IMG/VR virus record: IMGVR_UViG_3300027874_000006
Location: 1 to 42,304 of that record
DNA: 42,304 bases
Strand: one strand, 5' to 3'
Source of the DNA: a virus
Taxonomy: Duplodnaviria > Caudoviricetes
In this document: one piece after another, positions 1,736-37,868 of the stretch
Position numbering within the stretch: the first letter of the stretch is position 1
Layout: each line of letters begins with the position of its first letter
Notes under the pieces: generated by a model
Told to the model about the DNA's origin: nothing
Seen by the model: the letters and a program-made list of their open reading frames with translations, nothing else
Database searches by the model: none
Made by a program: the position numbers and the translations under genes

Positions 1736-3064
1736 TTACCGCTCCCACACGACGGGCCGCGCCACCGGAGGCGGCGGACTGGCCTCGGCGACGAGTCCGT
1801 AGCGGAGGGCGTCGGCGGCGTGGTCTTCGGTCTTGACGGACTTGAGCGCGTCGGCCAGGTCCTCGGGGTCGAGCGGGTCGTGGACCATCGCCGGCAGCGT
1901 GCGCTCGAGGTTGGGGCAGCGGCCCCGCAGCAACTGCAGTTTCGGCACCCCGTCGGCCTGGTCGGCCAGGGCGTCGCGCACGACCTGCCAGCCGTGGCGG
2001 CGGTTGTTGCCGCCGGGGACCAGCGGCACGCCGCGGGCGCGGTAGACGCTCGCGATCGAGGGCTTGTCCTGCTCGGACCGCTTGGCGAACATCGACGGGT
2101 CGCCGACGTGCAGGCCGTAGAGGCGCCCGTCGCCGGCGAGGCCGAGGTCGGCGCGCTCGCGGGCGACGCGGGCGGCGACCAGGTCGGCCTGCTCGGCGTC
2201 CCGCTTGCCGGCGGCGTAGAGCTCGCCGCTCACGTAGACGCGCCGGGTCGCGGGGTCGCGGGCGAAGAAGAGCGTGCAGAACGGCGCCGCGTAGCCGTAG
2301 TCGGTCGCGGTCCAGCGCGGCCAGTGCGGCGGGACCCGGATCGGGGCGACGACGTGGCGGTCGGGGTCCCACTCGGGGAAGAACATCCCGTCGGCCGCGC
2401 ACCACTCGCCCAGGCGCAGGCGCCGGTGGCGGTAGCCGGTCAGGGCATCGAGCGCGGCGAGGCGCTCGGGGGTGATGGACGGGTTGTCCTCGTGGCGGGA
2501 GCGCAGGCGCGTGGTGGCGCCGGCGGCGCAGCGCTGGTTGAGCCAGTGGTCGGGGCCGGCGGGGTTGCAGTCGCCGATCAGTTGGCGGTAGGGCATCACG
2601 TCGTGGCGCAGGCGCGAGCGGAGGATCTCCCAGTCGCCGAGCTCGAGCTCGGTCGCCTCCTGCACGTAGGCGACGTCCAACTCCAGCGACTTGATCTTCT
2701 CGGGGTCGTCCAGGCCGGCGACGATGAGGACCGAGCCGTTGGGGTAGCGGTACTCCTGCTCCTCGTGGTGGAACCGCACGCCCGAGGGCGACGGCAGCAC
2801 CTTCTCCTCGAAGGTGACCATCGCGGTCTGCGTCAGCGATACGCGGGTCTTGCGGAACAGGCCCCCGCGCATCTTCGGGTAGTTGACCGCGCAGATGTCC
2901 AGCTTCGCCAGGCAGGCGCGGCTCTTGCCCGTGTCGGCCGGCCCCTCGATGAGCACCTCGGGGTCGCGGCAGTACATCAACGCCTGGGCGGCGCCCTTGG
3001 GTTGGTAGGCGCCCGACGACGCCGGTGGCGGCCCCTGGACGCGCTCGAGGACGGGCAGGAGCAT
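1736..3064 (-). CDS. terL: Terminase large subunit
   Basis: Walker A-like EGPADTGKS, Walker B-like VAYVQEATE, motif III DCNP, nuclease TDYGY and C-terminal DHAADALRY. Adjacent to terS. Confidence 0.92.
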   Translation of the reverse strand: MLLPVLERVQGPPPASSGAYQPKGAAQALMYCRDPEVLIEGPADTGKSRACLAKLDICAVNYPKMRGGLFRKTRVSLTQTAMVTFEEKVLPSPSGVRFHHEEQEYRYPNGSVLIVAGLDDPEKIKSLELDVAYVQEATELELGDWEILRSRLRHDVMPYRQLIGDCNPAGPDHWLNQRCAAGATTRLRSRHEDNPSITPERLAALDALTGYRHRRLRLGEWCAADGMFFPEWDPDRHVVAPIRVPPHWPRWTATDYGYAAPFCTLFFARDPATRRVYVSGELYAAGKRDAEQADLVAARVARERADLGLAGDGRLYGLHVGDPSMFAKRSEQDKPSIASVYRARGVPLVPGGNNRRHGWQVVRDALADQADGVPKLQLLRGRCPNLERTLPAMVHDPLDPEDLADALKSVKTEDHAADALRYGLVAEASPPPPVARPVVWER

Positions 3065-3459
3065 CAGACGCGGCTCGTGTCGAGGTCGCGGTACTCGCGG
3101 ACGACCTGGCTGACGGTGAGGTCGACCTTGTCGCGGTACTTCTCGGGTCGGGCGCCCTTGAGCAGGAAGATCAGCAGTGTGTCGGAGTAGCGGGTGACGG
3201 TGTGCTCGGCGCCGGCGGCGTCGACCGTGGTGACGGGGTAGCCGGTGGCGCGGCGGCGGGCCTCGGCCTCGAGCGCATCGACGGCCTGGACCTCGGCGGC
3301 GCGGTAGGCCAGGACGAAGGCGTCGTCGATCTCCTGCCAGCGGTAGACGTTCTGCCGGGGCACGCGGGCCGCGCGGCAGGCGGCGGAGACGTTGCCCGAC
3401 GCGGCGAAGGCGGCCAGGAACCGCCTTTTCTGCTGTACCGCCTGTACCTCAGTCGCCAT
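3064..3459 (-). CDS. terS: Terminase small subunit (HTH type)
   Basis: FLAAFAASGNVSAACRAARVPRQNVYRW HTH, EAEARRRA and YSDTLLIFLLKG..PEKY motifs. Its stop overlaps the terL start. Confidence 0.85.
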   Translation of the reverse strand: MATEVQAVQQKRRFLAAFAASGNVSAACRAARVPRQNVYRWQEIDDAFVLAYRAAEVQAVDALEAEARRRATGYPVTTVDAAGAEHTVTRYSDTLLIFLLKGARPEKYRDKVDLTVSQVVREYRDLDTSRV

Positions 3460-3469
3460 CCGACCCCCG

Positions 3470-3512
3470 GAAACGCGGAAAGCCCGGCTCCTCTGACGGA
3501 GGAGTCCGGGCT
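3470..3512 (-). terminator. Terminator/attenuator-like hairpin upstream of terS
   Basis: Stem AGCCCGG(a)CTCCTC-loop-GAGGAGCCGGGCT (3481-3512), followed on the minus strand by an interrupted U tract (TTCCGCGTTT). Confidence 0.6.
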
Positions 3513-3539
3513 CGGGTGCGAGGTGCGGACCTGGTCGGC

Positions 3540-3568
3540 AGTCTAGCGCCTGGCGGGGCGCGTTTCAA
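3540..3568 (-). promoter_or_regulatory. Sigma70-type late promoter
   Basis: TTGAAA (3568-3563), 17-nt spacer, TAGACT (3545-3540), directed at terS. Confidence 0.7.
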
Positions 3569-3576
3569 GCACGTCG

Positions 3577-3948
3577 CCGGCGCGCCACACCGGACCCGAC
3601 CCAACGGAACCAGACCACGACAAGCCAGGCCAGCCCACGGCTCGCCTCGCCGTGGCAGGCCGTTGCCCCGACAGGCCCGAGCACGCCTAGCCACATCCGA
3701 GCCGGCCATACCAGAACGCGAACCCACCCCGCCCATCCGCAGCCCGCCGCACCCCACCCGTGCTAGCCCCGCCGGACCCTGCCGTGCCGGACCGAACCCA
3801 AACCCACCCTGCACGAGCTGACCCGACCGAGCCATGGCCCGCCGGACCGCAGCAGAGCAGAGCAAACCGTGGCCAACCGTGCCGCGCCAGACCAGACCAG
3901 ACCCGAGCCAAGCAGACCGCGCCGGAGCCAATCGCGGCGCACCGGACC
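3577..3948 (-). repeat. Pentamer array G(G/C)Y-NN, about 74 units, putative guide-type non-coding RNA
   Basis: The minus strand directly after the stop of 3949..4557 reads ggtcc ggtgc gccgc gattg gctcc ggcgc ggtct gcttg gctcg ggtct... The first 46 units are in unbroken register: position 1 is G in 45/46, position 2 is G in 31 and C in 12, position 3 is a pyrimidine in 44/46, and positions 4-5 are free. Confidence 0.92.
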
Positions 3949-4557
3949 CTAGTCGCGCAGGACGTCGAAGGCGACGACCTGGAAGCGGCCGTAGGTGGGG
4001 CGGAAGTCGGCCAGGCCGACGAGACGGCCGGCCTCCTGCACGACGGCGTTGAGCAAGTCGGGCGGGATGTACTCCGGGGTGAGGACGCTGAGGTCGAAGG
4101 TCGCGCGCCAGCCGGGGAACAGCGCCGGGCGCGAGCGGGTCACGGCGGCCATTTGCACCTTGACGCGGTGCCGCTCGACGGCGTCCCAGTGCGCCTTGCC
4201 GGTGTCGGCCAGGATCGTGGTCGCGACGACGCCGGCCTTGAACAGGTCCTGGGCCGACTTGCGCGGCGAGCGTGGGTCCTGGCGGTACTTGGCCGCCGCG
4301 AGGACGGCGCCGCGCAGGTAGGCGCCGGGGATGCCGATGTTGCCGTTGTCGCAGCGGTAGACGTAGGACTCCACGTCGTCGGTCTTCTTGGCCTTGGAGC
4401 CCTTGGCGGCCTTGCCCTTCTCCTCGACCGCCTCGGTGTTCCAGGCGTGGAAGAGGATCGGGGCGGTGCCCTCGACGGTGACCCGCGCCGTGTACGGGGC
4501 GCTGAGGTCGATGACGGCCGCGCCGTTGTTCGAGACCGGGGTCAGCACGGAGACCAT
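3949..4557 (-). CDS. Stand-alone Cas7/RAMP-like protein (Vipr-like), 202 aa
   Basis: RAMP hallmarks: N-terminal strand RVTVEGTAPILFH, IPGAYLRGAV (compare IPGSSxKGxxR of Csm3/Cmr4/Cas7), thumb-like RHRVKVQMAAVTRSRP, and C-terminal Gly loop GRLVGLADFRPTYGRFQV. RBS GGAGGA is 7 nt upstream. Confidence 0.8.
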   Translation of the reverse strand: MVSVLTPVSNNGAAVIDLSAPYTARVTVEGTAPILFHAWNTEAVEEKGKAAKGSKAKKTDDVESYVYRCDNGNIGIPGAYLRGAVLAAAKYRQDPRSPRKSAQDLFKAGVVATTILADTGKAHWDAVERHRVKVQMAAVTRSRPALFPGWRATFDLSVLTPEYIPPDLLNAVVQEAGRLVGLADFRPTYGRFQVVAFDVLRD

Positions 4558-4584
4558 CGCATGTTCCTCCTATCGCGAGCGGTG

Positions 4585-5242: not shown

Positions 5243-6382
5243 ATGCCGAAGCGGCGCGGCAAGCACGAGGGCACCCGCTACCGCCGGCCCGACGGCCTGT
5301 ACGTCGGGCGGGTGCAGTACGAGGGGCGCAAGTACTCGGTCTCCTCGACCGACCGGCTCGAGCGCGACCGGTTGCTGCGCGAGGTGATCCGCGACCTCAC
5401 CGCCGCGAAACTCCCCACGGGTGCCGGCCGGCGCAAGACGCTGCGCCAGGTGACGGAGGAGTGGCTGGCCGACCGGGCGCTCGTGAAGCCGAAGACCTAC
5501 CCGACCTGGAAGAGCTACGGCCGGCACCTGGCCGACGGGCCGCTGGGGGGCCAGGTGGTGGCGACCCTGACCGGGGCGCAGGTGACGCAGTTTTTGGCCG
5601 GGCGGGCCGCGGCGGGGTACGCGCCGTCGACGGTGCGGCAGATCCACCGGACGTTGCAGGCCTGCCTCAACTGGGCGGTCGACCAGGACGTGCCGGTGCC
5701 GGCGGCGGTGCTGCGCCTGGAGGCGCCGGCCGTCGAGGCGGTCGAGCGGGTGCAGTTGAGCCCGGCGCAGGTCGGCAACCTGTTCCGGTCCAGCCGTCTG
5801 CGGGGCGACCCGCTCGAGGCCTTCTGGCGCCTGACGTGGTATTTGGCGGCGCGCGACGGCGAGTTGCTCGCCTTGCCGTGGATCAACGTCGACCTCGGGC
5901 GCGGCGAGTGCTGGCTGATCCGCATCCTGGTCAAGTCGGTGGACGGGGTGCCGCGGGTCAACCCCGGCAAGACCAAATCGAGCCAGGCGATCCTCGCGAT
6001 CCCCGCCGACGCGGTGGACGCCTTGCGCCGGCACCACGCGGCGCAGGAGGAGCGCCGGCGCCTCTGCGGGCCGGCCTGGAAGGAGCAGCCCGGCGGGGCG
6101 CTGGTGTTCGACCGCGGGGACGGCGGGTCGTTCCGCCACGAGCAGGTGGAGCGGGCGTTCTACGCGGCGCTCGCGGCCGCCGGGCTGCCGCGGTGCCGGC
6201 TGCACGATTTGCGGGGGGCGGCGCTCTCGGCGCTGCGGGAGGCCGGCCACGACGTGCTCGACGTGCAGAAGCGGGCCCGGCACGCCTCCGTGAAGACGAC
6301 GCTGGACGCCTACGTGCGGGGCACCGACGCGGCCGACCGGCGCGCGGCCGACACGCTCGAGCGCCTGGTCGCCGAGGGGTAG
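5243..6382 (+). CDS. int: Tyrosine recombinase/integrase
   Basis: N-terminal KRRGKHEGT..RRPDG arm-binding-type start. Catalytic set: ARDGELLAL (R), KTKSS (K), LHDLR (HxxR), RHAS (H), LDAYV (Y). Confidence 0.93.
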   Translation: MPKRRGKHEGTRYRRPDGLYVGRVQYEGRKYSVSSTDRLERDRLLREVIRDLTAAKLPTGAGRRKTLRQVTEEWLADRALVKPKTYPTWKSYGRHLADGPLGGQVVATLTGAQVTQFLAGRAAAGYAPSTVRQIHRTLQACLNWAVDQDVPVPAAVLRLEAPAVEAVERVQLSPAQVGNLFRSSRLRGDPLEAFWRLTWYLAARDGELLALPWINVDLGRGECWLIRILVKSVDGVPRVNPGKTKSSQAILAIPADAVDALRRHHAAQEERRRLCGPAWKEQPGGALVFDRGDGGSFRHEQVERAFYAALAAAGLPRCRLHDLRGAALSALREAGHDVLDVQKRARHASVKTTLDAYVRGTDAADRRAADTLERLVAEG

Positions 6383-6384
6383 CA

Positions 6385-7173
6385 TCAGGACGCCTCCCCG
6401 TCGCCGCAGAAGCAGGAGAACATGTCCTCCTGCACCACCCCCGGCGGCGGCGCGTCCCGGGTGGCCAGGGCGGCCAGCGGCAGCGGGTGCCGCTGGCCGA
6501 GTCGGCGGTCGCTGACGATCGCGAAGTCGGCGCGCGGTCCGCCCTTGGCCCGCTGGGCGAGCTCCCACGCGCGGACCTCGGCGAACCGCTCCGGGAAGGC
6601 GTCGCGCAGGCGCAGCCACTCGCGGATCCCCTGCTTGACGCAGCGCCCGCCGCAGTTGTTGTGCTTAAAGCCGAGCGCGTACAGGCGGGGTGGGGTGATC
6701 CCCCACGAGCGGACGACCTCGGCGTAGGGCCGGAACTCGTAGGGCGTCCAGAGCAGCGGGAAGTCCACGTAGCGCCCCTCGGCGACCAGCGAGGCGAAAC
6801 GGGCGCGCATCCGCTCGACGCGGTGCATCTCGCGCCAGTCCAGCCCCAGGAGCGACGTGACCGGCTTCGGCCCCTCCCGGTCCATCGTGTCGAACGGCTG
6901 GATCTTCAGGATGGACGAGCAGGGCGCGATGTTGGCGTTCGGGATGATCGACTTGTCCTCGGCGACCTGGAGCGGCGTGCGCCCGTCGCGGTAGCGGAGC
7001 AGGTCGCCGCCCCAGCGCGCCATCAGGTCGTCGAGGAAGCGGTACAGATCCTCGTCCTCCCAGGACGTGTCCGCGAAGCGCAGCGCCACCGCCTCGCGCC
7101 CGTGGCGCTGGATGGCGCGCTCGGCCGACACCGCCGAGGCGACGCCGCCGGAGAGGCTCACCACGTAGCGCAT
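6385..7173 (-). CDS. PAPS-reductase-like / adenine nucleotide alpha-hydrolase (PP-loop) protein
   Basis: YVVSLSGGVAS PP-loop variant, FADTSWEDEDLYRFL, and Cys motifs CSSILK, HNNCGGRCVK, SCFC. Confidence 0.75.
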   Translation of the reverse strand: MRYVVSLSGGVASAVSAERAIQRHGREAVALRFADTSWEDEDLYRFLDDLMARWGGDLLRYRDGRTPLQVAEDKSIIPNANIAPCSSILKIQPFDTMDREGPKPVTSLLGLDWREMHRVERMRARFASLVAEGRYVDFPLLWTPYEFRPYAEVVRSWGITPPRLYALGFKHNNCGGRCVKQGIREWLRLRDAFPERFAEVRAWELAQRAKGGPRADFAIVSDRRLGQRHPLPLAALATRDAPPPGVVQEDMFSCFCGDGEAS

Positions 7174-9000: not shown

Positions 9001-9296
9001 GCCGTCTCCTCCAGCCCCGGCAGCATCGGGTGGCCGGCGGCGCGCTTGAGTTGGTCGAGGGGCGGCGGCACGAGCTCGGGGACGACGCGCTGCTCGAAGC
9101 GCAGCAGGTCGTCGAGCGCGTCGGGGACGACGACGAGCGCGAAGCGGCCCGAGAACGTCCAGGCCCGGCCCGCGTGGCCGCAGGCCGGGCACTGCCGGCG
9201 CCGGCCGTCGTGGCGGGGCGGTGTGTCGGCCGGCGGGAGCAGGGGGAAGGCCCCCGACGGGCCGCGGTGGCCGCACGATGGGCAGGTGCGGGTCAT
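8997..9296 (-). CDS. Zn-ribbon hypothetical protein (99 aa)
   Basis: CPSCGH and CPACGH motifs, coupled overlaps, RBS GGAGGA. Confidence 0.65.
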   Translation of the reverse strand: MTRTCPSCGHRGPSGAFPLLPPADTPPRHDGRRRQCPACGHAGRAWTFSGRFALVVVPDALDDLLRFEQRVVPELVPPPLDQLKRAAGHPMLPGLEETA

Positions 9297-10516
9297 AGAT
9301 CCTCCACCGTGGTGTGCTGCTCGAGGCCGAGCCGGCGCAGCTCCTGTTGGACGAGGGCGCCGAACCGGATGCGGCGCCGCGTCAGCGGGCTCCTACTCCC
9401 GGCGACGACCACCGCGACCTCGTCCACGCCGGCCTCGGCCTGCTCGACGAGGTCGATCGCGCGGGAGATCAGATCCGGCCGCTCGTCCGTCGATCGGTTC
9501 GCCGGGATCACCACCCAGACCCGCTTCGGGCCCGCGCTCCCGGACAGGACGATCCGCGCGGGCGGAGGGATGGACGGCGCCGGCACCGCCGTGGCGACCC
9601 CGGAAACGCTCGGAAGCATGCGCCGCACCTCGAACGCGCAGCGAGCGGCGTCCTCGAAGACCTCCTTGGCCGTGAAGCGCACGACCCGCCAGCCCGCGGC
9701 GGTGAGCCGGCGGTCGCGCTCGCGGTCGCGCCGGAAGGCCGCCTGGTCGCCGTGGTAGGCGAGGCCGTCGATCTCGATCGCCGTCTGCGACCCGAGGTGG
9801 GCGAAGTCGAGCCGGTAGGCGCCGCCCAGCACGACGTGCTGGACGGCGAGCTCGGGACCACCGCCGCGTTGCCAGGCCACCCAGAACGCGGCCTCGGCCG
9901 GCGACTCGAACGCCGGCGGGTGCGCGATCGCGAGCTCGCGGACCGCGGACACCGGGTCGTCGAAGCGGACGTGCTCGAGGCCCGGCAGCGCCGACGCGAA
10001 CCAGAGGTCGTCCACCGTGCATTCGCCCCCATGCCCACCCGTCGGGTCGTACAACCGATCGACGGCGTGCGGGCGGGCGACCACCACCCGACGGTCGGAC
10101 ACCCGTCCGGTCATGCAACCGAGGACGAACCCCAGCTCCACCAGCGTCCCATGCGCGGTCGGGTCGTCGAGCCAGACCAGGACGACGTCGGCCTGCCGAG
10201 CGGCCTCCAGGCACGCCCGCGCGATGCGTCCCTGCCGGTGGCGCTGCGTGGTGCTGGCGCCGTCGCACCAGAACGAGCTGTCGGCGCCGCCCCCGTGACT
10301 GCGCGGCCCGTGGTAGCACCGGCCGTGCCCGCAATCGACGAAGTACGGCCCGACGTAGTCGAACCGTCCGCCGACCGCGCCCGGTAAGCGCCGCCAGGCG
10401 TAGTGGTCGTCCTGCTCGTGCAGTCGCACGCACTCCTCCCGCAGGCCGTCGACGACGCGGTGCCGCCAGTCGCCCGCCGCGATCTTGCCGGCCAGGTAGA
10501 TCGCCGGCAGGCTCAC
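9293..10516 (-). CDS. Nucleoside 2-deoxyribosyltransferase-like domain fused to a DUF559/Vsr-like endonuclease
   Basis: IYLAGKI...ADVVLVWLDD..AHGTLVELGF (NDT-like), then ESPAE...YRLDFA...IEIDGLAYH...DRERDRRL..AGWRVVRF (DUF559). Start moved to GTG 10516. Confidence 0.75.
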   Translation of the reverse strand: MSLPAIYLAGKIAAGDWRHRVVDGLREECVRLHEQDDHYAWRRLPGAVGGRFDYVGPYFVDCGHGRCYHGPRSHGGGADSSFWCDGASTTQRHRQGRIARACLEAARQADVVLVWLDDPTAHGTLVELGFVLGCMTGRVSDRRVVVARPHAVDRLYDPTGGHGGECTVDDLWFASALPGLEHVRFDDPVSAVRELAIAHPPAFESPAEAAFWVAWQRGGGPELAVQHVVLGGAYRLDFAHLGSQTAIEIDGLAYHGDQAAFRRDRERDRRLTAAGWRVVRFTAKEVFEDAARCAFEVRRMLPSVSGVATAVPAPSIPPPARIVLSGSAGPKRVWVVIPANRSTDERPDLISRAIDLVEQAEAGVDEVAVVVAGSRSPLTRRRIRFGALVQQELRRLGLEQHTTVEDL

Positions 10517-10668
10517 GCCGGCACCGCCGGGAAAATGCCCAACCGGGCATTTACGTAAATGCCCACCACGGGCATTTTTCCGGTCCAGGTCGGCGCAGCC
10601 AGGGCCGACCGGGAAAATGCCCAACTCTTTTTTTCTATAGGGGTGGGCATTTTGTGTGCGGGGCTCAC
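10513..10668 (-). CDS. Short ORF (51 aa) running through the putative origin
   Basis: The GTG start overlaps the helicase stop and has RBS GAGGAGG. Its own stop overlaps the next GTG start. Confidence 0.4.
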   Translation of the reverse strand: MSPAHKMPTPIEKKSWAFSRSALAAPTWTGKMPVVGIYVNARLGIFPAVPA

Positions 10669-21168: not shown

Positions 21169-22992
21169 TCACGGGTTCGATTCGAGGCGGATGCGCGCCG
21201 CCGCGGTCGAGTTGGCGCGCACCGTCCCGGCGTTGCCGGCGACCAGGCCCGCGGCGACCACGTACTGGACCCGCAGCGACCGCCGCGTGATCAGGCCGAT
21301 GTTGAGCGCGGTGCAGACCAGCGCCGCCCCGCCGGCGTCGAAGACCTGCCAGTCGCCCGGCGCCGAGACCGTGACCGTCGGGGCGGCGTACATCTCGACC
21401 GGGTAGCGCAGGACCAGTTGGCCGGCGGTGGTCGACACGTTCTGCCCGGTCCCGAGGAACTCGTTGGTGTCCAGGCCCCCGATCTCCTGGTAGTAACGCT
21501 GGCAGCGGATGAGCTCCTCGGCCGGGTGCAGCGGCGCGTAGGCGAGCGCGGCCGACCCGGCCCAGAGCGTCGCGTTGTCCAGGTACACCGTCCCCGTCCC
21601 GTTGGTGAGGCCGACGTAGGCGCGCAGGGCCGTCGCGGTGGCCGGCACGGCGACCGTGAGCGCGAGGGTCTCGTAGGCGGTCGTGGCGTTGTAGCCCGAG
21701 TCGTAGGTCGTCGTCCCGTCGACGAGCCGCACCCAGGCCCGGTTGGCCGCCGGCGCCTGCACCCGGACCGCGAACGTCACCGTGCGCCCGCGCAACTGCG
21801 CGTAGCCCTCGAGCGCCTGCCCGAGGTAGGCCGCCCCGCCGGCCGCGTGGGTGTAGGCCAGGGCGGCGGCCTTGCCCGAGCCGGCGTCCACGTTGGTCGT
21901 GTCGGGGGTGACCGAGAGGATCGACCCACCCGAAAGCTCGATCCGCCAGGCGTCGGGGCCGTAGGCCAGGTGGGCCGTGAACGGGCCGTTGCCCCTGGCC
22001 CAGGTCTCCAGGCCGGGGTTCGTGAGTTCGTTCTCGGCCGCCGACGCCGCGTGCGCGTGGTTGCCCGCCGCGGCCTGCTGGGCGCCCGCCCCGAGCGTCC
22101 GCAGCGACGGCGTGGCGGCCGTGCCGTCCTTGTTCGCGGCCGCCACGTCCCCATCCACGATCACACCTGGGGCGAGTTGCGGGGAGGGGTAGGTCCCGGT
22201 GAGGTCGCCGCCGGCGGCACCGTTGGGCGGCAGGCTCGACGCCGGCGTCTGCCAGGAGGGGAAGCCCCCGACGAAGGTCAGGATCTGGTTGTTGGTCCCC
22301 CCGGCCAGGCGCATCGGCTGCCCGGCCGTCCCGCCCATGACCATGTCGCCGACGGCCGACATCGGGTTGACGATCCAGGTCGGCGTCGCCCAGATGATCT
22401 GGCCCTGGTACACGATCATGACCTGGCCCTCGGCCCCGCGGGCGAAGCGGGTCGGCGTCCCGCCCGCGCCGCCCTTGATCAAGTCCTCGGGCGCCGTCAT
22501 CGGGTTCGTCATCCCGCCGCCGCCGCCACCGCCGGAGCCCATCGTGACCTGGATCAGGCAGGGCGCGTTGTTGTTGGGCGCACTCCCGCCCGAGGAGACG
22601 GGCGTGACCGGGATCTGGAACCACCCGCCCTGGTTGGTCGGGGTGGCCGTGACCTGGTAGCGCGCCCAGTTGGCGCTCGACGCCTGCGTCTGGACGTAGA
22701 GCAGGTCCCCGGCCAGGATGGAGGAGAGCACGCTCGTGACGTCGGTGCCGTTGTCGGTCACGACGTCCAGCGCCAGCGCCGTCGACGTCGTGAACAGGCC
22801 CGTGTTGATGCGGTACTGCCCCGCGCCCGGGTCGGCCATGGCCGTGTTGGCCGAGAAGCGGTAGTAGAACACGCTCGTGGAGGGGTGCGTGTGCGCGTCG
22901 ATCAGGTCCAGGTCCACCCCGAGCACCCCGAGCAGCGTGCGCTGATCCTCCGGCTTGGTCAGGTGGAGCACCGGGGTCAGCCTGCCCTCCAC
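21169..22992 (-). CDS. Tail fibre / receptor-binding protein 2
   Basis: TPVLHLTKP N-terminus, two NPM..D...GG..G.P.R repeats, a carbohydrate-binding-like ELTNPGLETW...VYLDNA region, and EELIRCQRYY. Confidence 0.75.
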   Translation of the reverse strand: MEGRLTPVLHLTKPEDQRTLLGVLGVDLDLIDAHTHPSTSVFYYRFSANTAMADPGAGQYRINTGLFTTSTALALDVVTDNGTDVTSVLSSILAGDLLYVQTQASSANWARYQVTATPTNQGGWFQIPVTPVSSGGSAPNNNAPCLIQVTMGSGGGGGGGMTNPMTAPEDLIKGGAGGTPTRFARGAEGQVMIVYQGQIIWATPTWIVNPMSAVGDMVMGGTAGQPMRLAGGTNNQILTFVGGFPSWQTPASSLPPNGAAGGDLTGTYPSPQLAPGVIVDGDVAAANKDGTAATPSLRTLGAGAQQAAAGNHAHAASAAENELTNPGLETWARGNGPFTAHLAYGPDAWRIELSGGSILSVTPDTTNVDAGSGKAAALAYTHAAGGAAYLGQALEGYAQLRGRTVTFAVRVQAPAANRAWVRLVDGTTTYDSGYNATTAYETLALTVAVPATATALRAYVGLTNGTGTVYLDNATLWAGSAALAYAPLHPAEELIRCQRYYQEIGGLDTNEFLGTGQNVSTTAGQLVLRYPVEMYAAPTVTVSAPGDWQVFDAGGAALVCTALNIGLITRRSLRVQYVVAAGLVAGNAGTVRANSTAAARIRLESNP

Positions 22993-23241: not shown

Positions 23242-24791
23242 CGCGCCTCCAGCACGGCGATCCGCGCGTGCGCGTCGTACAGGTGCATCTGCAACTGCTC
23301 GACGGTGGCCCAGAGTCCGCTCACGAGCGCCCCGAGGCTTTTCGGGCCGGTCGCGGTCCACTCGGCGCGGCCCGGCATCGTCGGGAGGTGGCGGTTCGCG
23401 CGCGTGAACGCCGCGGTCTCTTCGACGCCCAGCACCCGCGCGTCCGCCCAGCGGGGGTCGTCCGCGTCCTCGGGCCGGAGTGCCCCGTCGTAGTACAGAT
23501 CCCACAGGGCGTCTGTAAGAAGTACATTGTCGTCGTAGACGGCGACGGCGTTGATCGTGCCCGCGCCCTTGTTGCCGCCGGTCGGGGTGCCGACGACCAG
23601 GCCCGCGCCGGTGCCGAGCACCTTGACGGCGGTGTCGACCATCACCAGCGCCCCGGCCCCGGACTGGATCGAGACCAGCGTCGAGACCGACGTGCCGCCG
23701 AGCGTGATCTGGCCCGACAGCGCCGAGAGGATCTGCATGTCGCCGACGCCCGAGACCCCGCGCCCCCACAGGTCGAAGCCGTTGGCGACCCGCATCGCCC
23801 CGACGGTCGCCAGCGTCCCGGATCCGAGCGCGAGCGGCCCGGTCGTGACCGCGGCGCCGGCCGCGCCCGTGACGCTCAAGCCCCCCGCGCTCGAGACCAC
23901 CACGCCGCCACCCGAGAAGGTCGCGCCCCCGACCGAGACCGCGAGGCCGCCCGCGCCGGCGACCAGGAGCCCGTCGTCGGTCGCGAGCGTGTCGGCGGCG
24001 GTGCGGTAGAGGTTCACGTCGCCGGTCGACCCGAGGCTCAGCCCCGCCTGCGACGCCGGTCCGACCGGGCCGATCAGCACCTGGCCGGCGCCGGTCAGCC
24101 AGGCCGGCACGCCCGCCTGGATCGTCAGCACCTGGTTGGCCGACCCCGGCGCCACCCGCGTCGCCGCGCCCGACGCGCCACCCCGGATGATGTCCCCGCT
24201 CGCCGTCATGGGATTCGCGAAACCGACGTCCGGCGGCAAACTCTGCCAGGCGGCCGTCCCGCCGACCACGGTCAGCACCTGCCCGCCGGTTCCGACGCCG
24301 AGGCGGTTGGCCGCCCCCGAGGCGCCGCCGACGATCAGGTCGCCCGTGCCCGTCATCGGGTTGGTCATTCCGCCCGAGACCGGCGCCTGCCAGGTCGGCA
24401 CGCCGCCGACGACCGTCAGCACCTGGGTCGCGGCCCCGATCGCCAGGCGCGTCGCCGTCCCGCCGGCGCCCCCGACGATGAGGTCGGCCGGCGTCGTCAT
24501 CGGGTTGTTGAACCCCACGTCCGGCGGCGGCGTTTGAAAAACCGGCACGCCGCCGACCACGGTCAGGCGCTGGCCCTCGGTGCCGGCCGGCACCCGCGTC
24601 GGCGCACCGCCGGTGCCGCCCCGGATCAAATCGCCCACGCCGGTCATCGGGTTGATGACCGCGCCGACCAGCGTCCCGAAGCGGGCGTCGATGAGGTCCA
24701 TGTCGGTGTTGATCTCGCGGATGTCGGCCCGCCCGTCGAAGGCCGGCTTGATCAGCCCGACGATCGGGGTGGTGGTGTCGACGTCGCTCAC
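23238..24791 (-). CDS. Tail fibre protein 1 with four ~48-aa repeats and a C-terminal chaperone-like domain
   Basis: TPIVGLIKP N-terminus, four NPMT..D.I.GG..G...R...G...Q.LT repeats, and C-terminal NRHLPTMP...LWATVEQLQMHL coiled end. Confidence 0.78.
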   Translation of the reverse strand: MSDVDTTTPIVGLIKPAFDGRADIREINTDMDLIDARFGTLVGAVINPMTGVGDLIRGGTGGAPTRVPAGTEGQRLTVVGGVPVFQTPPPDVGFNNPMTTPADLIVGGAGGTATRLAIGAATQVLTVVGGVPTWQAPVSGGMTNPMTGTGDLIVGGASGAANRLGVGTGGQVLTVVGGTAAWQSLPPDVGFANPMTASGDIIRGGASGAATRVAPGSANQVLTIQAGVPAWLTGAGQVLIGPVGPASQAGLSLGSTGDVNLYRTAADTLATDDGLLVAGAGGLAVSVGGATFSGGGVVVSSAGGLSVTGAAGAAVTTGPLALGSGTLATVGAMRVANGFDLWGRGVSGVGDMQILSALSGQITLGGTSVSTLVSIQSGAGALVMVDTAVKVLGTGAGLVVGTPTGGNKGAGTINAVAVYDDNVLLTDALWDLYYDGALRPEDADDPRWADARVLGVEETAAFTRANRHLPTMPGRAEWTATGPKSLGALVSGLWATVEQLQMHLYDAHARIAVLEAR

Positions 24792-32707: not shown

Positions 32708-32965
32708 GTGAGCAGGCAGCGTTGGCTCGACGAAGCCGCGATTCTGTGGCTGATCGGTGCCGTGGTCGCGGCGTACGTCGACCGCGCCTGGCTCTGGACG
32801 TACGCGGTCACGCTCGTGCCGTTCTTCGCCGTCGCCTGGCTCGTGTACGACTGGCGGTACGGTCCGCGGCGCCCGGTCACGGGATCCGCCGCCGCTCGCG
32901 CCGGTCGCCCGACGGGATCTCCTTCAGGATCTCCTGGGCCGCCCGCCGCCGCCCCGCCTCGATAG
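32708..32965 (+). CDS. Antisense small membrane protein (moron, possible superinfection exclusion)
   Basis: 3' end of ORF 31580..32965: MSRQRWLDEAAILWLIGAVVAAYVDRAWLWTYAVTLVPFFAVAWLVYDW... with two TM segments. TACGAT lies 6 nt before the GTG. Confidence 0.6.
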   Translation: MSRQRWLDEAAILWLIGAVVAAYVDRAWLWTYAVTLVPFFAVAWLVYDWRYGPRRPVTGSAAARAGRPTGSPSGSPGPPAAAPPR

Positions 32966-35900
32966 CGTCGGCGGCCAGTTTGCGCTTGCCGGCGTCGTCC
33001 GCGTTCTCGTAGCTCGCGCGGTTCTGCACGCGGTCGAGGTTGTCGGTCGCGTACTCCAGCGCGCGGCGTTGGTAGTCGACCCGCTCCGCCGGCTCGAGGA
33101 CCACGTTCTCCACCGCGTCGGCGACCGGACCGAAGTTGAGGCCCAGGCGCCGGGTGTCCGGCAGGTCGTAGAAGGCGCGCTGCGTCTCGGTCACAGCCGC
33201 CTCGAAGTGCGCGCGGCCGAGTTGCTGCGGGCCGACGTTGAGCGCGCCGACCAGCCCCGAGACGCCCGGCGCGCGGGCCGCCTCCTGGGCGAGCGTGGTC
33301 GCCTGGCGCCGCGCCTCGCCGGGCACCTCGGGGTGGTAGCCGAGCGCGCCCAAGCCCAGGTCGAGCGCCCAGAGGCCCTGCGCGCCCGCGCCGCCGGTGT
33401 AGTTCCTGATCGCGTACTCGATCATGCGGGGTGAGACGCCGAATTGCCGGCCGAGCGCGACCGCGGTCTCGGAGGTCTCGGGCCCGAACTGCTCCTCGGC
33501 CGGCCGGCCGGCCTCGCCCTGCGGCACGATCGGGCGCTGGCGGAACGGGTCGTAGTTGGCCTGGATCGCGGAGGCGGTCGCGGCCAGCGGCGGGGTGAGC
33601 GCCGCCGCCAGGCCCGGCACGTTCGGCTCGACCGGCGAGAGGCCGCGCGTGGCGGCCGCGCCGGCGTGCAGGAACAGCTCCGCCGCCGAGCGGTCGTTGC
33701 GCGCGTCGGCCAGGCGCAGCATGGCCTCGATGGGGGCCGACACCAGCGCGCCGGCGTCGCCCTTGGGGATCTTCACGTAGAGGGGGATCTTCTGCGGCGG
33801 CGCGTCGGGCATCCGGGGATCGGGCGCCTCCTCGGCCTCGCCGAACTGGAAGACCCAGTTGCGGTCCCACTCGGAGTCGGGGATCGACGCCGAGGAGTCG
33901 TAGCGCTTGTTCCACAGGTACGCCGCCGTCGAGAGCACCGCCGCCGGCGCCGCCGCGCGGGCGGCGAACTGGGCCTTGTTGTCGCGGGCGAGGCGCAGCG
34001 TGTTGGCGGTCCCCTGGACGCGCGCGTTCAGGAACGGGACCATCTGGTTCATCATCTTGACGAAGTTGCCCGACTTGGAGAAATCCACCGTGACGTCGCG
34101 GGCCCGCACCGCCGCCTCGCGGGTCGTCGCCCCCTCGGCGCGCGCCTTCAGGAAGGTCGCCAAGCGCGGCGCCTGCTCGGCGATCTCGTTGGCGCGCATC
34201 ACGGGCGCGGTCGCCTTGCCCAGCAGGCGCGGCAGCAGCAGCACGGCGTCGCGCGCGTCGCGGACCTCGATCCCGCCGCGCAGGGACCGGGCGCGGGCGA
34301 GGACGTCCTGCGTGCGGCGGGACTCGAGCAGGCCCCCGCCGAGGGCGCCGGATGCCGCGGCCTCGGAGAAGTCGGCGTTCTTCGCGATGGCGGCCTTCCA
34401 CCCGGCCAGCATCTCGGGCGACCAGAGCTTGATCCCCTCCTTGACGTAGGCGGACTGGGCGTCGCGCAGGATGTTGCGCGGCAGGAAGGCCAGGTTGTAG
34501 GCGGTCGCGCCGGCCCGCAGCGGCATCGCCAGCGCGGACGCGATCCGCAGGAACAGGCTCGACGGCTCGGCCTCGGACCCCTTGGCGATGTCGGCGAAGA
34601 CCTTCGGCACGTCGGCGAGTTGCTCGACGCCGGGCTGCGCGGGGTCGTAGAAGCGCACGACCCCGCGCTCGCGCGTCTCGGCGCCCCGGCCCGCGCGCTC
34701 GAGCGCCTCGCGCGTCCCGACCAGGACGTCGTGCCCGGCCCCCTGGCGGTCGGCGGCGACCAGTCCGTCGACCATCTCGCGGGACGCGCGGTTCTGGAAG
34801 ACCCGCTTCTGGGTGTCGATGAGGTCGGCCATCCAGCGCGCGACCGGGTCGTCGAGCGGCCTAGTCGACCCGACCAGGCTGCGCTTGCCCAGGTCGACCG
34901 CGCTCGCCGAGGCGGGGCCGCGGGGCGGCAGCAGGTGGCCGACGCCCTCGCCGGCGTAGTCGTAGCGGTGGAACGGCAGGTAGTGCGGGTTGTTGACGCG
35001 GTAGTCGCGGTACTGCGCGGGCGAGATCAGGCCGGCGTCGAGGAGCGGCCTCAGGCGCAACTCGTCGTTGAGCGCGTTCAGCTCGCGCATCGCCGCGTCG
35101 GCGCGGGCGACGCGCTCGGGCCCGTAGCGGCTCACCAGCGCCTTGAGTTCTTGCTGGACCCCGGCGGCCCCGTTCACGCCACCGGGGAGGCGCACGCCGG
35201 GGGAGCGGGCGGCCAGGTCCTCGGCCGACTTGAGGAACCAGAGACGCTCGAGCACGGGCACGTCGGAGCCGAGCCGGTCGAGGACCGGGAGCACGCGCGT
35301 GCGGACGAGGTCCTCGCCGGCGGCGACGGCGCCGGGGACGATCTGGGCGGCGGCGTGGGCGCCGGTCAGGCGGTCGTTGCCGACCAGCGCGTCGACCTCG
35401 CGCAGCGCGTGGTTGCGGTCGTAGGCCTCGCGCACCAGGCGATCCGCGGCGTCCTCGAGTTGCTGGGCCCGCGTGGTCGTCGGCCGCGCCAGCGCCCGCT
35501 CGGTCGCGACGCCCGGCGGGGTCACCTCAATCGGCGCCCGCTGAGCCCCGACGTCGGTCACGACCCGCTGCGGCGTGGCGCGGCCGGCGGTCTCGACGGT
35601 CTGCGCCAGGCCCTCGCCGGGGCGCCCACCCTCGACCGCGCGCAGCGCCGGCGCGGCGCCGGCCTCGGGCGGCGGCTGGGCCCAGACCGGGATCCGGCTC
35701 CGCAGCGCGGCGACATCGGCCGCGGTCGCCGGCGCCTCCTCGGAGAACAGACCCGGCTCGGTCGCGCGGGCGCGCGCCGCTTCCTCGTCGGAGACGAGGA
35801 AGCCCTCCTCGAGCGCCCGCTGCCGCGCCGCTTCCTCCTGGGCGCGCATCCCCATCGGGGAACGCTGGGCGGGTTTGGTCGGCTTGCCGGCCGCCTCGTC

Positions 35901-37868
35901 CTTCTTGCGCTGCATCCAGGCGGCGAAGTCGCCGGGGCCCGGGACGTCCTCGCCCAGGCCGGCCGCGCTGACGGCCCCGCCGACCCGCCCGCCGCCCGTC
36001 CCACCGCGCGCCTCCTGGGCGGCGGTGGTCGCCTCGGCCTCGGCGGCCGCGCCGGGGCGCAGCATCTCGGCGAGCACGCCCGGCTCGGACTGGCCCTGCC
36101 GGGTCAGGAACTGGCCGAGCAGTCCCCCGTCGAGCGCGGCGCCGACGACCTTCACGATCGACTGGACGGCCGCGCCCGGGTTCGAGAAGTCGAGCGGCTC
36201 CTCCCCGGAGGTGATGCGCTGGAGGGTGCCGGCGCCCCGGCCGACGATGTCCTCGCCGGTGGCCGGCACCTCGCCCCGCTGCACCCGCTCCTGCTCGCGC
36301 CGGGACGGCGGCGCCACGTTGGGCGAGACGTTGGGCGGCAGGTACGGCACGCGCGCGCCGAAGGGCCCGCCCAGGTTCGCCAGGCCCTCGAGCCCGAACG
36401 GCGGCCGGTTGGGCGTCAGCGGTTCCTGCTCGGCCTGGTCCTCCTCGACGACCGCCTCGGGCACGCCCGTGAACGACTTGTCCCGGAACGGGGGCGCCGG
36501 CTGCTCGAACGCGGACGGCGGCCGGTCGCCCGCGGTGCTCACGCCGTTGTCGGCGGCCACGCTCGGGGTCGGCGAGCGCGGGTTGTCGACGTAGAGCACG
36601 CCGTTGATCCCGCCGTCGAGGTCGGCGATCTCCTGCGCGCTCATCCACGCGCTCCCGCCCCGCCGCGCCTCGCCGGTCTTGCCGACCCGCAGGCGGCCCG
36701 TGGCCGCGTCGTAGCCGTTGACGTAGTAGTAGTGCCGGGGCGTCGAGACGATCACGGGGTTCCCGGAGGCGGCGTCGTGGGCGACCTCGCCGAAGTCGGG
36801 GTTGGCGTCGAGTCGGGAGGCCACGCCCAGGTCGGAGAGGAGCGCCTGCTCGTTGGCGACGCCGTTCATCCCGCCCTCGGGCGTCCACCCGCGCGCCCGC
36901 GCCAGGCGGCGTGCTTCTCCAAGGTCGGGGTTGCGCCCGTTCGCTTGCGCGAAGGCGAGCGCCGCGACCGGCCCGCAGATGGCGGCGGCCTCCTCGTAGG
37001 GCAGGCCCTGCTCGAACTGGCCGACCGCCTCGGCGCGAACGGGCGTTCGTTGGCCTTGAAACTGCGTCGATTCTGCCCCAGGAGCGGGGGCAGAGCCCAA
37101 AACCGACTCCGTGGGCGTCCCCCCACCTGGCGAGGCTCCTAGCGCGTCCTGCGCTGCCTGGTAGTTGGCGCCGGCGCGCTCGGGGTCGACGCTGCGCTGC
37201 CCGACCCGCTGCGCGTAGCTGGCGAGGTCCGCGCCGGTCAGTCCCTGGGCCTGTCCCTGCTTGATCGCCTGGCCGAGGTAGCCCGCGAGCGCCCAGCGGT
37301 TGGCCGAGTGGGGATCGGCGGCCAATTCGGCGTCGGCCTGCTGCTCGCTGATGCCGCGCGACCGCGCGTACTCGTTGCCCATCCCGCCGCCGAAGAACAG
37401 CTGGAACGTGCCGCGACTGCCGCCCTTCGCCACGTCGCCCTGCGTGCCGCCCATCCCGCCCTCGGTCGCGGCGACGGCGACGGCGGCGCGGGCGCCCGCG
37501 TCGTCCAGGCCGGCCGCCCGCGCATCGGCGTAGACGCGCTGGAGCGGATCGGCACCGACCCCCGTCGCCCCGACGGCCTCGGGCTGCGAAGCGGCCGGCG
37601 CCACCGGGGCGCGGGCGCTCGCCACCGCGGCGGCGTGCTGGTCGGCGGTGTCGTAGAAGGCACGCCGGGCGTCCGCGGTCGCCTGCTGGTCGCGGATCGC
37701 GCCCCGTTGGGCGTCGGCGGTGCGGGCGAACTCCTGCTGGGCGGCCTGGTCCTGCTGCTGCCGGGCGGCGTCCACCTGCGCGGCGTGCGCGGCGGCGGTC
37801 TGCGCGAACTGATCCTGGTTGTGCTGGTCGAACTGGTCCTGCGGGATTGGAGGAAGGGCCGTCGGCAT
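32877..37868 (-). CDS. Large polyvalent ejection protein (lysozyme-like, C39-like peptidase, LPD38-like C-terminus), 1663 aa
   Basis: ATEGG...SRGTFQL (muramidase-like), ICGPVAA...HYYYVNGYD (C39-like Cys-His-Asp), and RDVTVDFSKSG...VPFLNARVQG...PFRQRPIVP (LPD38-like). Confidence 0.75.
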   Translation of the reverse strand: MPTALPPIPQDQFDQHNQDQFAQTAAAHAAQVDAARQQQDQAAQQEFARTADAQRGAIRDQQATADARRAFYDTADQHAAAVASARAPVAPAASQPEAVGATGVGADPLQRVYADARAAGLDDAGARAAVAVAATEGGMGGTQGDVAKGGSRGTFQLFFGGGMGNEYARSRGISEQQADAELAADPHSANRWALAGYLGQAIKQGQAQGLTGADLASYAQRVGQRSVDPERAGANYQAAQDALGASPGGGTPTESVLGSAPAPGAESTQFQGQRTPVRAEAVGQFEQGLPYEEAAAICGPVAALAFAQANGRNPDLGEARRLARARGWTPEGGMNGVANEQALLSDLGVASRLDANPDFGEVAHDAASGNPVIVSTPRHYYYVNGYDAATGRLRVGKTGEARRGGSAWMSAQEIADLDGGINGVLYVDNPRSPTPSVAADNGVSTAGDRPPSAFEQPAPPFRDKSFTGVPEAVVEEDQAEQEPLTPNRPPFGLEGLANLGGPFGARVPYLPPNVSPNVAPPSRREQERVQRGEVPATGEDIVGRGAGTLQRITSGEEPLDFSNPGAAVQSIVKVVGAALDGGLLGQFLTRQGQSEPGVLAEMLRPGAAAEAEATTAAQEARGGTGGGRVGGAVSAAGLGEDVPGPGDFAAWMQRKKDEAAGKPTKPAQRSPMGMRAQEEAARQRALEEGFLVSDEEAARARATEPGLFSEEAPATAADVAALRSRIPVWAQPPPEAGAAPALRAVEGGRPGEGLAQTVETAGRATPQRVVTDVGAQRAPIEVTPPGVATERALARPTTTRAQQLEDAADRLVREAYDRNHALREVDALVGNDRLTGAHAAAQIVPGAVAAGEDLVRTRVLPVLDRLGSDVPVLERLWFLKSAEDLAARSPGVRLPGGVNGAAGVQQELKALVSRYGPERVARADAAMRELNALNDELRLRPLLDAGLISPAQYRDYRVNNPHYLPFHRYDYAGEGVGHLLPPRGPASASAVDLGKRSLVGSTRPLDDPVARWMADLIDTQKRVFQNRASREMVDGLVAADRQGAGHDVLVGTREALERAGRGAETRERGVVRFYDPAQPGVEQLADVPKVFADIAKGSEAEPSSLFLRIASALAMPLRAGATAYNLAFLPRNILRDAQSAYVKEGIKLWSPEMLAGWKAAIAKNADFSEAAASGALGGGLLESRRTQDVLARARSLRGGIEVRDARDAVLLLPRLLGKATAPVMRANEIAEQAPRLATFLKARAEGATTREAAVRARDVTVDFSKSGNFVKMMNQMVPFLNARVQGTANTLRLARDNKAQFAARAAAPAAVLSTAAYLWNKRYDSSASIPDSEWDRNWVFQFGEAEEAPDPRMPDAPPQKIPLYVKIPKGDAGALVSAPIEAMLRLADARNDRSAAELFLHAGAAATRGLSPVEPNVPGLAAALTPPLAATASAIQANYDPFRQRPIVPQGEAGRPAEEQFGPETSETAVALGRQFGVSPRMIEYAIRNYTGGAGAQGLWALDLGLGALGYHPEVPGEARRQATTLAQEAARAPGVSGLVGALNVGPQQLGRAHFEAAVTETQRAFYDLPDTRRLGLNFGPVADAVENVVLEPAERVDYQRRALEYATDNLDRVQNRASYENADDAGKRKLAADAIEAGRRRAAQEILKEIPSGDRRERRRIP

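What the first reader, a model, noticed from the sequence alone, without database searches (positions are those of the whole stretch)
3949..4557. Minimal RAMP protein lacking any effector partner
Seen: first strand plus G-x-x-P (VTVEGTAPILFH), IPGAYLRGAV helix, basic insertions (KGKAAKGSKAKK, RQDPRSPRKS) and a terminal G-loop variant (GLADFRPTYGRF), all within 202 aa. Established: these motifs occur in this order in Cas7-group RAMPs of class 1 CRISPR complexes. Inference: a phage-borne stand-alone backbone protein that could be ancestral-like or derived. An alternative role is anti-CRISPR decoy, poisoning host Cascade/Csm assembly.
Basis: partly seen in the sequence, partly recalled or inferred. 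Interest (0 to 1): 0.7.

Follow-up and report, generated by a model that had tools for sequence, protein, structure and literature searches.

The report
Phage VIPR cassette with tail-less array
The lone Cas7-like gene of this soil phage is followed directly by 73 five-base repeats, which makes it a new copy of the VIPR systems described in 2026, likely using that array as guide RNA to bind and silence the DNA of rival phages, although its targets were not found.

Summary
The 202-aa ORF and its motifs are real, and its model matches Cas7/Csm3 folds. But it has a partner. Its only PDB sequence hit is SUSP1 Vipr (E 3e-6; profile 2e-12). The base after its stop begins a 367-nt array of 73 GGY/NN-type pentamers (3948-3582). 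78 of 80 relatives carry such a tract beside the gene. All three SUSP1 residues shown essential by mutation (K33, R138, D177) have counterparts invariant in 119 of 119 sequences. It is therefore a VIPR system, published in 2026 and found by this scan on other DNA before. Local features: gene plus array form a 1.0-kb cassette that a sister phage replaces with another ORF. No accessory (vap) gene or structured tail is evident, and one block runs 47 units in phase, against 9-16 per published guide. No target was found above background, and expression is untested. The anti-CRISPR idea has no support. New member of a known kind; modest interest.

The parts
3949..4557 (-). vipr gene, 202-aa RAMP/Cas7-fold protein. 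Counterparts of SUSP1 Vipr RNA/DNA-contact residues: H37=H17, K52=K33, R143=R138, D184=D177, F185=W178, R186=R179
   Evidence: residue roles from 10.64898/2026.04.26.720927
4566..4571 (-). Shine-Dalgarno-like AGGAGG, 8 nt before the vipr ATG
3714..3948 (-). guide-array block B1: 47 in-phase pentamer units, starting at the base after the vipr stop codon
3663..3712 (-). guide-array block B2: 10 units, phase shifted by one extra base (3713)
3582..3661 (-). guide-array block B3: 16 units, phase shifted by one extra base (3662)
3571..4584 (-). whole swappable cassette (vipr + array + 11 nt); sister phage L099 has an unrelated 231-aa ORF in this slot
3540..3568 (-). sigma-70-like promoter consensus (TTGAAA-17-TAGACT) in front of terS; shared with the VIPR-less sister phage, so outside the cassette
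3480..3512 (-). strong hairpin (z -4.2) before terS; shared with the VIPR-less sister phage, so not a VIPR-specific tail; could end the array transcript (inferred)

Best explanation
The ORF encodes a Vipr-family RAMP protein followed immediately by a 73-unit GGY/NN pentamer array, forming a two-part VIPR cassette in a temperate phage, which likely works as an RNA-guided DNA-binding silencer of competing mobile elements. Shown here: protein homology and fold, conserved contact residues, the array and its statistics, co-occurrence in relatives, and the cassette boundaries. Inferred from SUSP1 (10.64898/2026.04.26.720920.720927): the array is transcribed with vipr, since no promoter consensus lies inside the cassette. 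One Vipr protomer would bind each pentamer and hide the GGY-like triplet. The NN pairs would read double-stranded DNA with every third base skipped, without a PAM, and the bound filament would block transcription, with no nuclease. Inferred and weaker: the 47-unit block holds about 3-4 guides read from one RNA without tails, the two one-base phase shifts mark guide borders, and the targets are satellites or sister phages of the same, unknown, high-GC soil host.
For: Only PDB sequence hit is SUSP1 Vipr 36pp (E 3.2e-6 single; 2.4e-12 profile over positions 30-200 of 207). Cas7/Csm3 fold. H37, K52, R143, D184 and R186 are invariant in 119 of 119 aligned sequences; F185 is F in 105, Y in 5. SUSP1 K33, R138 and D177 are each required for silencing. 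Array: position 1 G in 70 of 73 units, position 2 G in 51, position 3 pyrimidine in 70, strict GGY in 46. 78 of 80 related viral loci have a same-strand tract next to the gene (70 downstream, 56 upstream); opposite-strand tracts occur in 5 of 80. The genome is a complete temperate phage (terminal repeat; terS, terL, capsid, integrase, repressor). In the same protein clade (about 59% identical), one guide shared by L025/L026/L044/L033 matches a sibling element's helicase-like gene over 8 consecutive units under the 1-nt skip rule, antisense and with the wobble base skipped, and mismatches its own copy. Block B1 folds less stably than shuffled versions (z +2.7 and +3.5; 0 of 200 shuffles of position 3 as weakly folded), as expected for an RNA that must stay single-stranded.
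Against: No target for this phage's own guides was found above background in any search. No RNA data were available. There is no vap gene, although SUSP1 needs vap1 in natural infection (10.64898/2026.10.15.759431). There is no SUSP1-like structured tail inside the cassette (11 nt left; folds of the region z -0.85 and -1.8). Only 46 of 73 units are strict GGY, and the SUSP1 E71 counterpart is Ala here (E in 80 of 119). The clade-wide skip-rule test is only suggestive: 7 of 211 blocks had runs of 8 or more under skip 1 (3 of them one shared guide), against 2 (skip 0), 3 (skip 2) and 0-3 in 20 shuffles. The under-folding is seen in B1 only (B2 +1.3/+1.5, B3 +0.9/-0.05; 101 relatives' blocks mean +0.02/+0.40).
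Confidence: 0.86

Rival explanations
1. A decaying VIPR cassette: real in origin, but its guides have drifted and no longer have targets, or it is incomplete without a vap gene.
For: No target found. 27 of 73 units deviate from GGY. No vap. The sister phage does without the cassette.
Against: Intact ORF with GC3 0.99 and a ribosome-binding site. All key residues kept. Similar degeneracy and long tracts are common across the clade (in-phase blocks of 8 to 115 units, G at position 2 in 4,312 of 4,988 units). The likely targets (elements of an uncultured soil host) are poorly sampled: only 4 terL and 16 capsid relatives were found in the viral collection.
Confidence: 0.06
2. The guides aim at host genes or at the phage's own lysis-lysogeny or late genes rather than at rival elements.
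For: The array abuts the putative terS promoter. One B1 window matches the phage's own DNA at 17 of 20 bases under skip 1. Satellite guides that target host REP elements are published (10.64898/2026.10.15.759431).
Against: The 17/20 self match is background: skip 2 also reaches 17/20, and the best log-odds score 21.9 lies inside the shuffled range 18.7-30.2. Published vrRNAs showed no self hits at 80% or more. The host genome is unknown, so host targeting could not be tested.
Confidence: 0.04
3. Anti-CRISPR decoy: a Cas7 mimic that poisons host Cascade/Csm assembly (first reader's alternative; viral cas homologues acting as Acrs are known, 10.1101/2023.06.24.545427, abstract read).
For: Cas7/Csm3-like fold; precedent for type I-B Cas homologues that assemble into a defective complex.
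Against: Only 10-16% identity to Cas7/Csm3 in the structural matches, whereas a mimic would be expected to resemble the host subunit. It has a dedicated GGY/NN array in 78 of 80 relatives and conserved GGY-reading residues, which a decoy would not need.
Confidence: 0.03
4. Remnant of a minimal array-less class 1 system such as type IV-B (Csf2 with a CysH-like gene; recalled, not from a call), since a PAPS-reductase gene lies 1.8 kb away.
For: window 6385-7173 hits phrog_424, PAPS reductase.
Against: The PAPS gene is separated from vipr by the integrase and two other genes and occurs near 0 of 80 related vipr loci. No other Cas family among 54 genes.
Confidence: 0.01

Closest known systems
VIPR systems (Vipr + vrRNA), bioRxiv 10.64898/2026.04.26.720920; type II example Escherichia phage SUSP1, PDB 36pp; structure paper 10.64898/2026.04.26.720927
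   Same: Minimal RAMP of about 200 aa, homologous to SUSP1 Vipr, with conserved GGY- and DNA-contact residues; adjacent same-strand GGY/NN pentamer array; phage-encoded; no cas genes or CRISPR array.
   Different: No vap gene in the cassette. No tailed, separate vrRNAs: one continuous 73-unit tract with two one-base phase shifts and a 47-unit in-phase block (published guides have 9-16 units). G-loop W178 is F and E71 is A. Position 2 of the scaffold is looser (70% G).
Stand-alone vipr loci and 'staggered' vrRNA arrays (same paper, methods and fig. S18 legend); probably type I
   Same: The paper mentions stand-alone vipr genes and staggered arrays in which the end of one vrRNA is the start of the next, offset by 1 nt; this fits the one-base phase shifts seen here. 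It names vap genes for types II-VII only, so a vap-less locus is type I by elimination (my inference).
   Different: Type could not be tested: the figures, tables S2-S3 and data S4 that define the types were not visible. Whether a 47-unit unbroken block is shown there is unknown to me.
Cas7-group RAMPs of class 1 CRISPR (type VII Cas7, Csm3)
   Same: RRM core, thumb and G-loop fold.
   Different: 10-16% identity; no Cas5/6/8/10, no CRISPR array; 5-nt scaffold code instead of contiguous spacer pairing.
Viral cas homologues acting as anti-CRISPRs (10.1101/2023.06.24.545427)
   Same: Orphan Cas-like gene on a phage.
   Different: This gene carries its own guide array and belongs to the Vipr family by sequence.

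Membership tests
VIPR | Vipr protein: minimal RAMP homologous to described Viprs | tested here: met
   (SUSP1 Vipr only hit)
VIPR | Thumb and G-loop residues that read GGY and hold the skipped base (H17, K33, R138, D177, W178, R179) | tested here: met
   H37, K52, R143, D184, R186 invariant in 119 of 119; F185 aromatic; E71 counterpart is Ala
VIPR | Adjacent tandem YNNGG (GGY/NN) repeats with variable NN, 4 or more units | tested here: met
   73 units, 46 strict GGY, 30 distinct pentamers among the first 47; 78 of 80 relatives
VIPR | No CRISPR array or cas operon; viral or proviral context | tested here: met
VIPR | NN code matches DNA targets under the 1-nt skip rule | tested here: inconclusive
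   no target for this array; suggestive hit in clade relatives
VIPR | vrRNA expressed and bound by Vipr; filament; repression | not testable with these tools
   no RNA holder listed; needs bench work
VIPR type II (SUSP1/P. fulva) | vap1 gene in the operon | tested here: not met
   cassette holds vipr + array only; upstream genes are shared with the VIPR-less sister phage and occur near 0 of 80 related vipr loci
VIPR type II (SUSP1/P. fulva) | separate vrRNAs of 9-16 units, each with a conserved 3' tail | tested here: not met
   continuous tract, no repeated tail; 11 nt between last unit and cassette end
VIPR ribozyme-interspersed arrays (types I, V) | hammerhead ribozymes between vrRNAs | tested here: not met
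   no spacers between blocks; no Rfam hit at gathering score in the window or 10 related loci
VIPR type I / staggered arrays | placement in the published Vipr phylogeny and fig. S18 architecture | not testable with these tools
   type-defining figures and data files not visible
Class 1 CRISPR-Cas effector | Cas5/Cas6/large subunit and CRISPR array | tested here: not met
Cas-mimic anti-CRISPR | inhibits type I/III interference; sits in an acr/aca cluster | not testable with these tools
   no activity test possible; neighbours are terS and two unknown genes shared with the sister phage; no aca search was run

The most novel reading that the evidence does not exclude
This is the fully minimal form of VIPR: one protein and one unprocessed, tail-less RNA. 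Vipr polymerises along a 47-unit block and any run of about 10 units can act as a guide, so one transcript multiplexes several targets with no accessory protein, tail or ribozyme. Selection keeps the long RNA unfolded by choosing T or C at scaffold position 3 according to the next base (C before purine, T before pyrimidine: 52 of 70 units, odds ratio 8.3, against 2.1 for the genome background). That would be a design rule for multiplexed synthetic guides.
Probability: 0.2. Interest if true: 0.6.

Novelty: new member of a known kind. Interest (0 to 1): 0.3.

Why it matters
It turns an 'orphan RAMP' into an ordinary example of a published system, so the evolutionary claim (phage RAMP older than CRISPR) is not new. 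What this copy adds is a clean natural definition of the smallest cassette, 1.0 kb of vipr plus array with no vap and no tail, delimited by a sister phage that lacks it. It also poses an open, testable question that the characterised type II systems do not answer: how a long tail-less tract is divided into guides. If it is active alone, it is a compact multiplex repressor from a high-GC host.

Tried and rejected
Targets. (1) Own genome and 80 vipr loci, all 10-unit windows, skips 0-3: best 17/20 under skips 0, 1 and 2 alike (skip 3 finds only the array itself). (2) Sister-phage fragments L099-L102, L001 and own genome: scores inside the shuffled range. (3) 113 loci, 1.13 Mb, including RecT and capsid relatives: best 25.4/22.7/22.9 for B1/B2/B3, inside shuffled ranges. 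(4) Exact gapped-pattern scans of viral contigs: B2 units 2-9, 18 hits, none extends over both flanking units; B1 units 6-14, 0 hits; B3 units 3-11, 0 hits; B1 units 23-30, 12 hits, none extends convincingly. (5) Metagenome scan with B1 units 6-14: 35 hits, at most 5 of 10 upstream bases match. One of the 35 (L123) is a tyrosine integrase hit in codon register just before its catalytic Arg motif. That suggested an integrase-targeting first guide, but the decoded array does not score above shuffles against 146-150 integrase homologues, nor against terL or Vipr profiles: rejected as unproven. Host: genome-collection scans with the integrase and with Vipr found no relative; relatives cannot be drawn for a virus record; cluster names were uninformative; best plasmid and phage hits were below 40% identity. 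Host remains unknown; single named hits were Kouleothrix (Vipr, 63%) and an Actinomycetota bacterium (terL, 59%). Expression: no RNA holder listed; laying four DNA runs gave one near-identical full-length contig, possibly the source, and short relatives' pieces. Fold-back hairpins as processing signals in the array: not supported; B1 is under-structured and 101 relatives' blocks are near zero. Rfam: 0 hits. Pfam: 0 hits for the protein. A conserved vap in the clade: no neighbour gene is shared by more than 16 of 80 loci, and those 16 are one syntenic sub-group. A 7-of-12 GGY signal in L099 lies on the opposite strand of a proline-rich ORF and was dismissed. No complex prediction and no phylogeny were run.

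Full report
Setting. The window is a complete circular phage genome: 99-nt terminal repeat, classed as direct terminal repeats and 100% complete, GC about 73%. It carries terS (3064-3459), terL, a capsid gene, RecT, a tyrosine integrase (5243-6382) and a CI-like repressor. The runs that hold it are soil metagenomes. The host could not be determined.

The protein. The ORF at 3949-4557 (-) is 202 aa and contains every motif quoted. Codon-position GC is 0.67/0.48/0.99, and there is an AGGAGG 8 nt upstream. Pfam gives nothing; PHROGs gives phrog_4652, unknown function (E 8e-19). It belongs to a large family: 5,946 of 6,513 candidates at E<=0.001, the best at 77-83% identity. An AlphaFold2 model from a 119-sequence alignment (pLDDT 90.7, pTM 0.83) matches type VII Cas7, Csm3 and Cas7-11 at 10-16% identity, and three viral proteins at E<=2.4e-7, one named 'Cas system-associated RAMP superfamily protein'. 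By sequence, the only PDB match at E<=1 is the SUSP1 Vipr protein, 36pp (E 3.2e-6; 2.4e-12 with the profile). The structure preprint 10.64898/2026.04.26.720927 (part 1 of 6 and passages read) assigns G1 to H17 and D177, G2 to R138 and W178, Y3 to R179/E71/M72/C173, and the skipped base to K33. Alanine at D177, R138 or K33 abolishes silencing. The aligned residues here are H37, D184, R143, R186 and K52, each invariant in 119 of 119 sequences, plus F185 (F 105, H 6, Y 5), Y80, V180 and A79 (E in 80).

The base after the stop codon begins a pentamer tract on the same strand. It has three in-phase blocks, B1 3948-3714 (47 units), B2 3712-3663 (10) and B3 3661-3582 (16), separated by single extra bases. 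Of 73 units, 70 have G first, 51 G second, 70 a pyrimidine third; 46 are strict GGY; the last two positions vary. B1 has 29 GGY in phase against a shuffled mean of 7.6 and maximum of 15 in 10,000. Nothing like it occurs elsewhere in the window. Of 80 related viral loci, 70 have a tract just downstream, 56 upstream and 78 at either place; opposite-strand tracts occur in 5. Long unbroken tracts are usual in this clade (245 blocks, 8-115 units). This is the vrRNA architecture of VIPR, defined in 10.64898/2026.04.26.720920. I read its whole text and searched the supplement PDF by term only. Figures, tables and data S1-S4 were not visible and bear on type assignment.

Cassette limits. Sister phage L099 (terL 91% identical, 86-90% nucleotide identity over about 5.5 kb) matches window 5300-4594 and again from 3570 onward. 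In between it has an unrelated 231-aa ORF and no Vipr. So the two upstream genes are not accessory genes; they occur near 0 of 80 related vipr loci. The promoter-like site (3568-3540) and the strong hairpin (z -4.2) belong to the terS region. Only 11 nt lie between the last unit and the shared sequence, so there is no room for a SUSP1-type tail of about 40 nt inside the cassette. No Rfam family was hit. Across the 80 loci no neighbour is shared by more than 16, all from one syntenic sub-group. The paper names vap genes for types II-VII, mentions stand-alone vipr genes and describes staggered arrays offset by 1 nt. Type I with a staggered array is therefore my inference, not a test. L099 is a 9.4-kb fragment, so vipr elsewhere in that genome is not excluded; only this slot was compared.

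Mechanism. By homology to SUSP1, one protomer binds each pentamer and hides the triplet, and the NN pairs read dsDNA with every third base skipped. The filament represses transcription; natural targets are satellites and prophages (10.64898/2026.10.15.759431, part 1 of 8 and passages). All of this is inferred for this locus. Two observations bear on it. First, in relatives about 59% identical, a guide shared by L025, L026, L044 and L033 matches 8 consecutive units, antisense and wobble-skipped, in a helicase-like gene of siblings L024, L028, L035, L040 and L043, while the carriers' own copies mismatch (14-15 against 18-19 of 22 bases). The global test is only suggestive: 7 of 211 blocks with runs of 8 or more under skip 1, three of them the same guide, against 2 and 3 for skips 0 and 2 and 0-3 in 20 shuffles. 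Second, scaffold position 3 is coupled to the next base: C before a purine and T before a pyrimidine in 52 of 70 units (odds ratio 8.3, p 9e-5). In relatives the ratio is 3.2 (above 1 in 54 of 57 loci), but the genome background after any GG is already 2.1, so part of this is ordinary dinucleotide bias. B1 folds less stably than shuffles, B2 and B3 not significantly, relatives barely. Term searches of two of the VIPR preprints for purine/pyrimidine/GGC showed no such rule. I did not search the structure paper or any figures for it.

Targets of this array were not found. All local, sister-phage, viral-collection and metagenome searches stayed at background. A lead that the first 14 units spell an integrase helix (1 of 35 metagenome hits, L123) failed profile tests. 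The collection scans were exact-match only, and close relatives of this phage are scarce (4 terL, 13 RecT, 16 capsid loci), so the blank weighs little.

Rivals. Decayed cassette (0.06), host- or self-directed guides (0.04), Cas7-mimic anti-CRISPR (0.03; precedent 10.1101/2023.06.24.545427, abstract only) and a type IV-B-like remnant (0.01; recalled, PAPS gene near 0 of 80 relatives).

Novelty. VIPR is published; literature searches list three VIPR preprints and a language-model survey that recovers 99 VIPR-like array clusters (10.64898/2026.10.21.760802, passages). This scan has noted VIPR loci on other genomes, including staggered arrays (unchecked AI notes); none were noted on this genome. 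Verdict: new member of a known kind, interest 0.3. The bold reading, a fully minimal, unprocessed multiplex VIPR, has probability about 0.2.

Noticed in passing
L044:6013-6160, L025, L026, L033 (guides); L043 near 6490-6515, L024, L028, L035, L040 (targets): A VIPR guide shared by four related elements matches a helicase-like gene of sibling elements over 8 consecutive units (1-nt skip, antisense, wobble skipped) and mismatches the carriers' own copy: apparent sibling targeting with self-avoidance.
   Followed up: partly
L099:391-2088 and 2893-3588: The sister phage has a different integrase, with an HNH-like gene beside it, and a proline-rich 231-aa ORF in the VIPR slot: both the integration module and the slot before terS are exchangeable.
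   Followed up: partly
L180:2486-3103 (OR003939.1, phage DSL-LC04): A 53%-identical Vipr homologue in a GenBank phage is annotated 'helix-turn-helix transcriptional regulator'; likely a mis-annotation. Its array was not examined.
   Followed up: no
L013 and L052, downstream arrays: Short GAAA-loop hairpins are embedded between pentamer blocks; L059 has a repeated AT-rich spacer between blocks. Guide borders differ within the clade.
   Followed up: no
L055, L062, L074 arrays: Very long tracts, with in-phase blocks up to 115 units in the clade, far beyond the published 9-16 units per guide.
   Followed up: no
window 6385-7173 (-): PAPS-reductase-family gene (phrog_424) directly after the integrase on the opposite strand.
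   Followed up: partly
window 32877-37868 (-): 1,663-aa protein with an LPD38 domain (large polyvalent protein type), in the virion-gene region.
   Followed up: no
window 22249-22507 and 24096-24675: Diverged repeats of about 140-147 nt inside two tail-region genes, probably protein repeats.
   Followed up: no
window 9293-10624 (-): 443-aa protein combining a nucleoside deoxyribosyltransferase-like part with a DUF559/REase_MTES_1575 nuclease domain.
   Followed up: no
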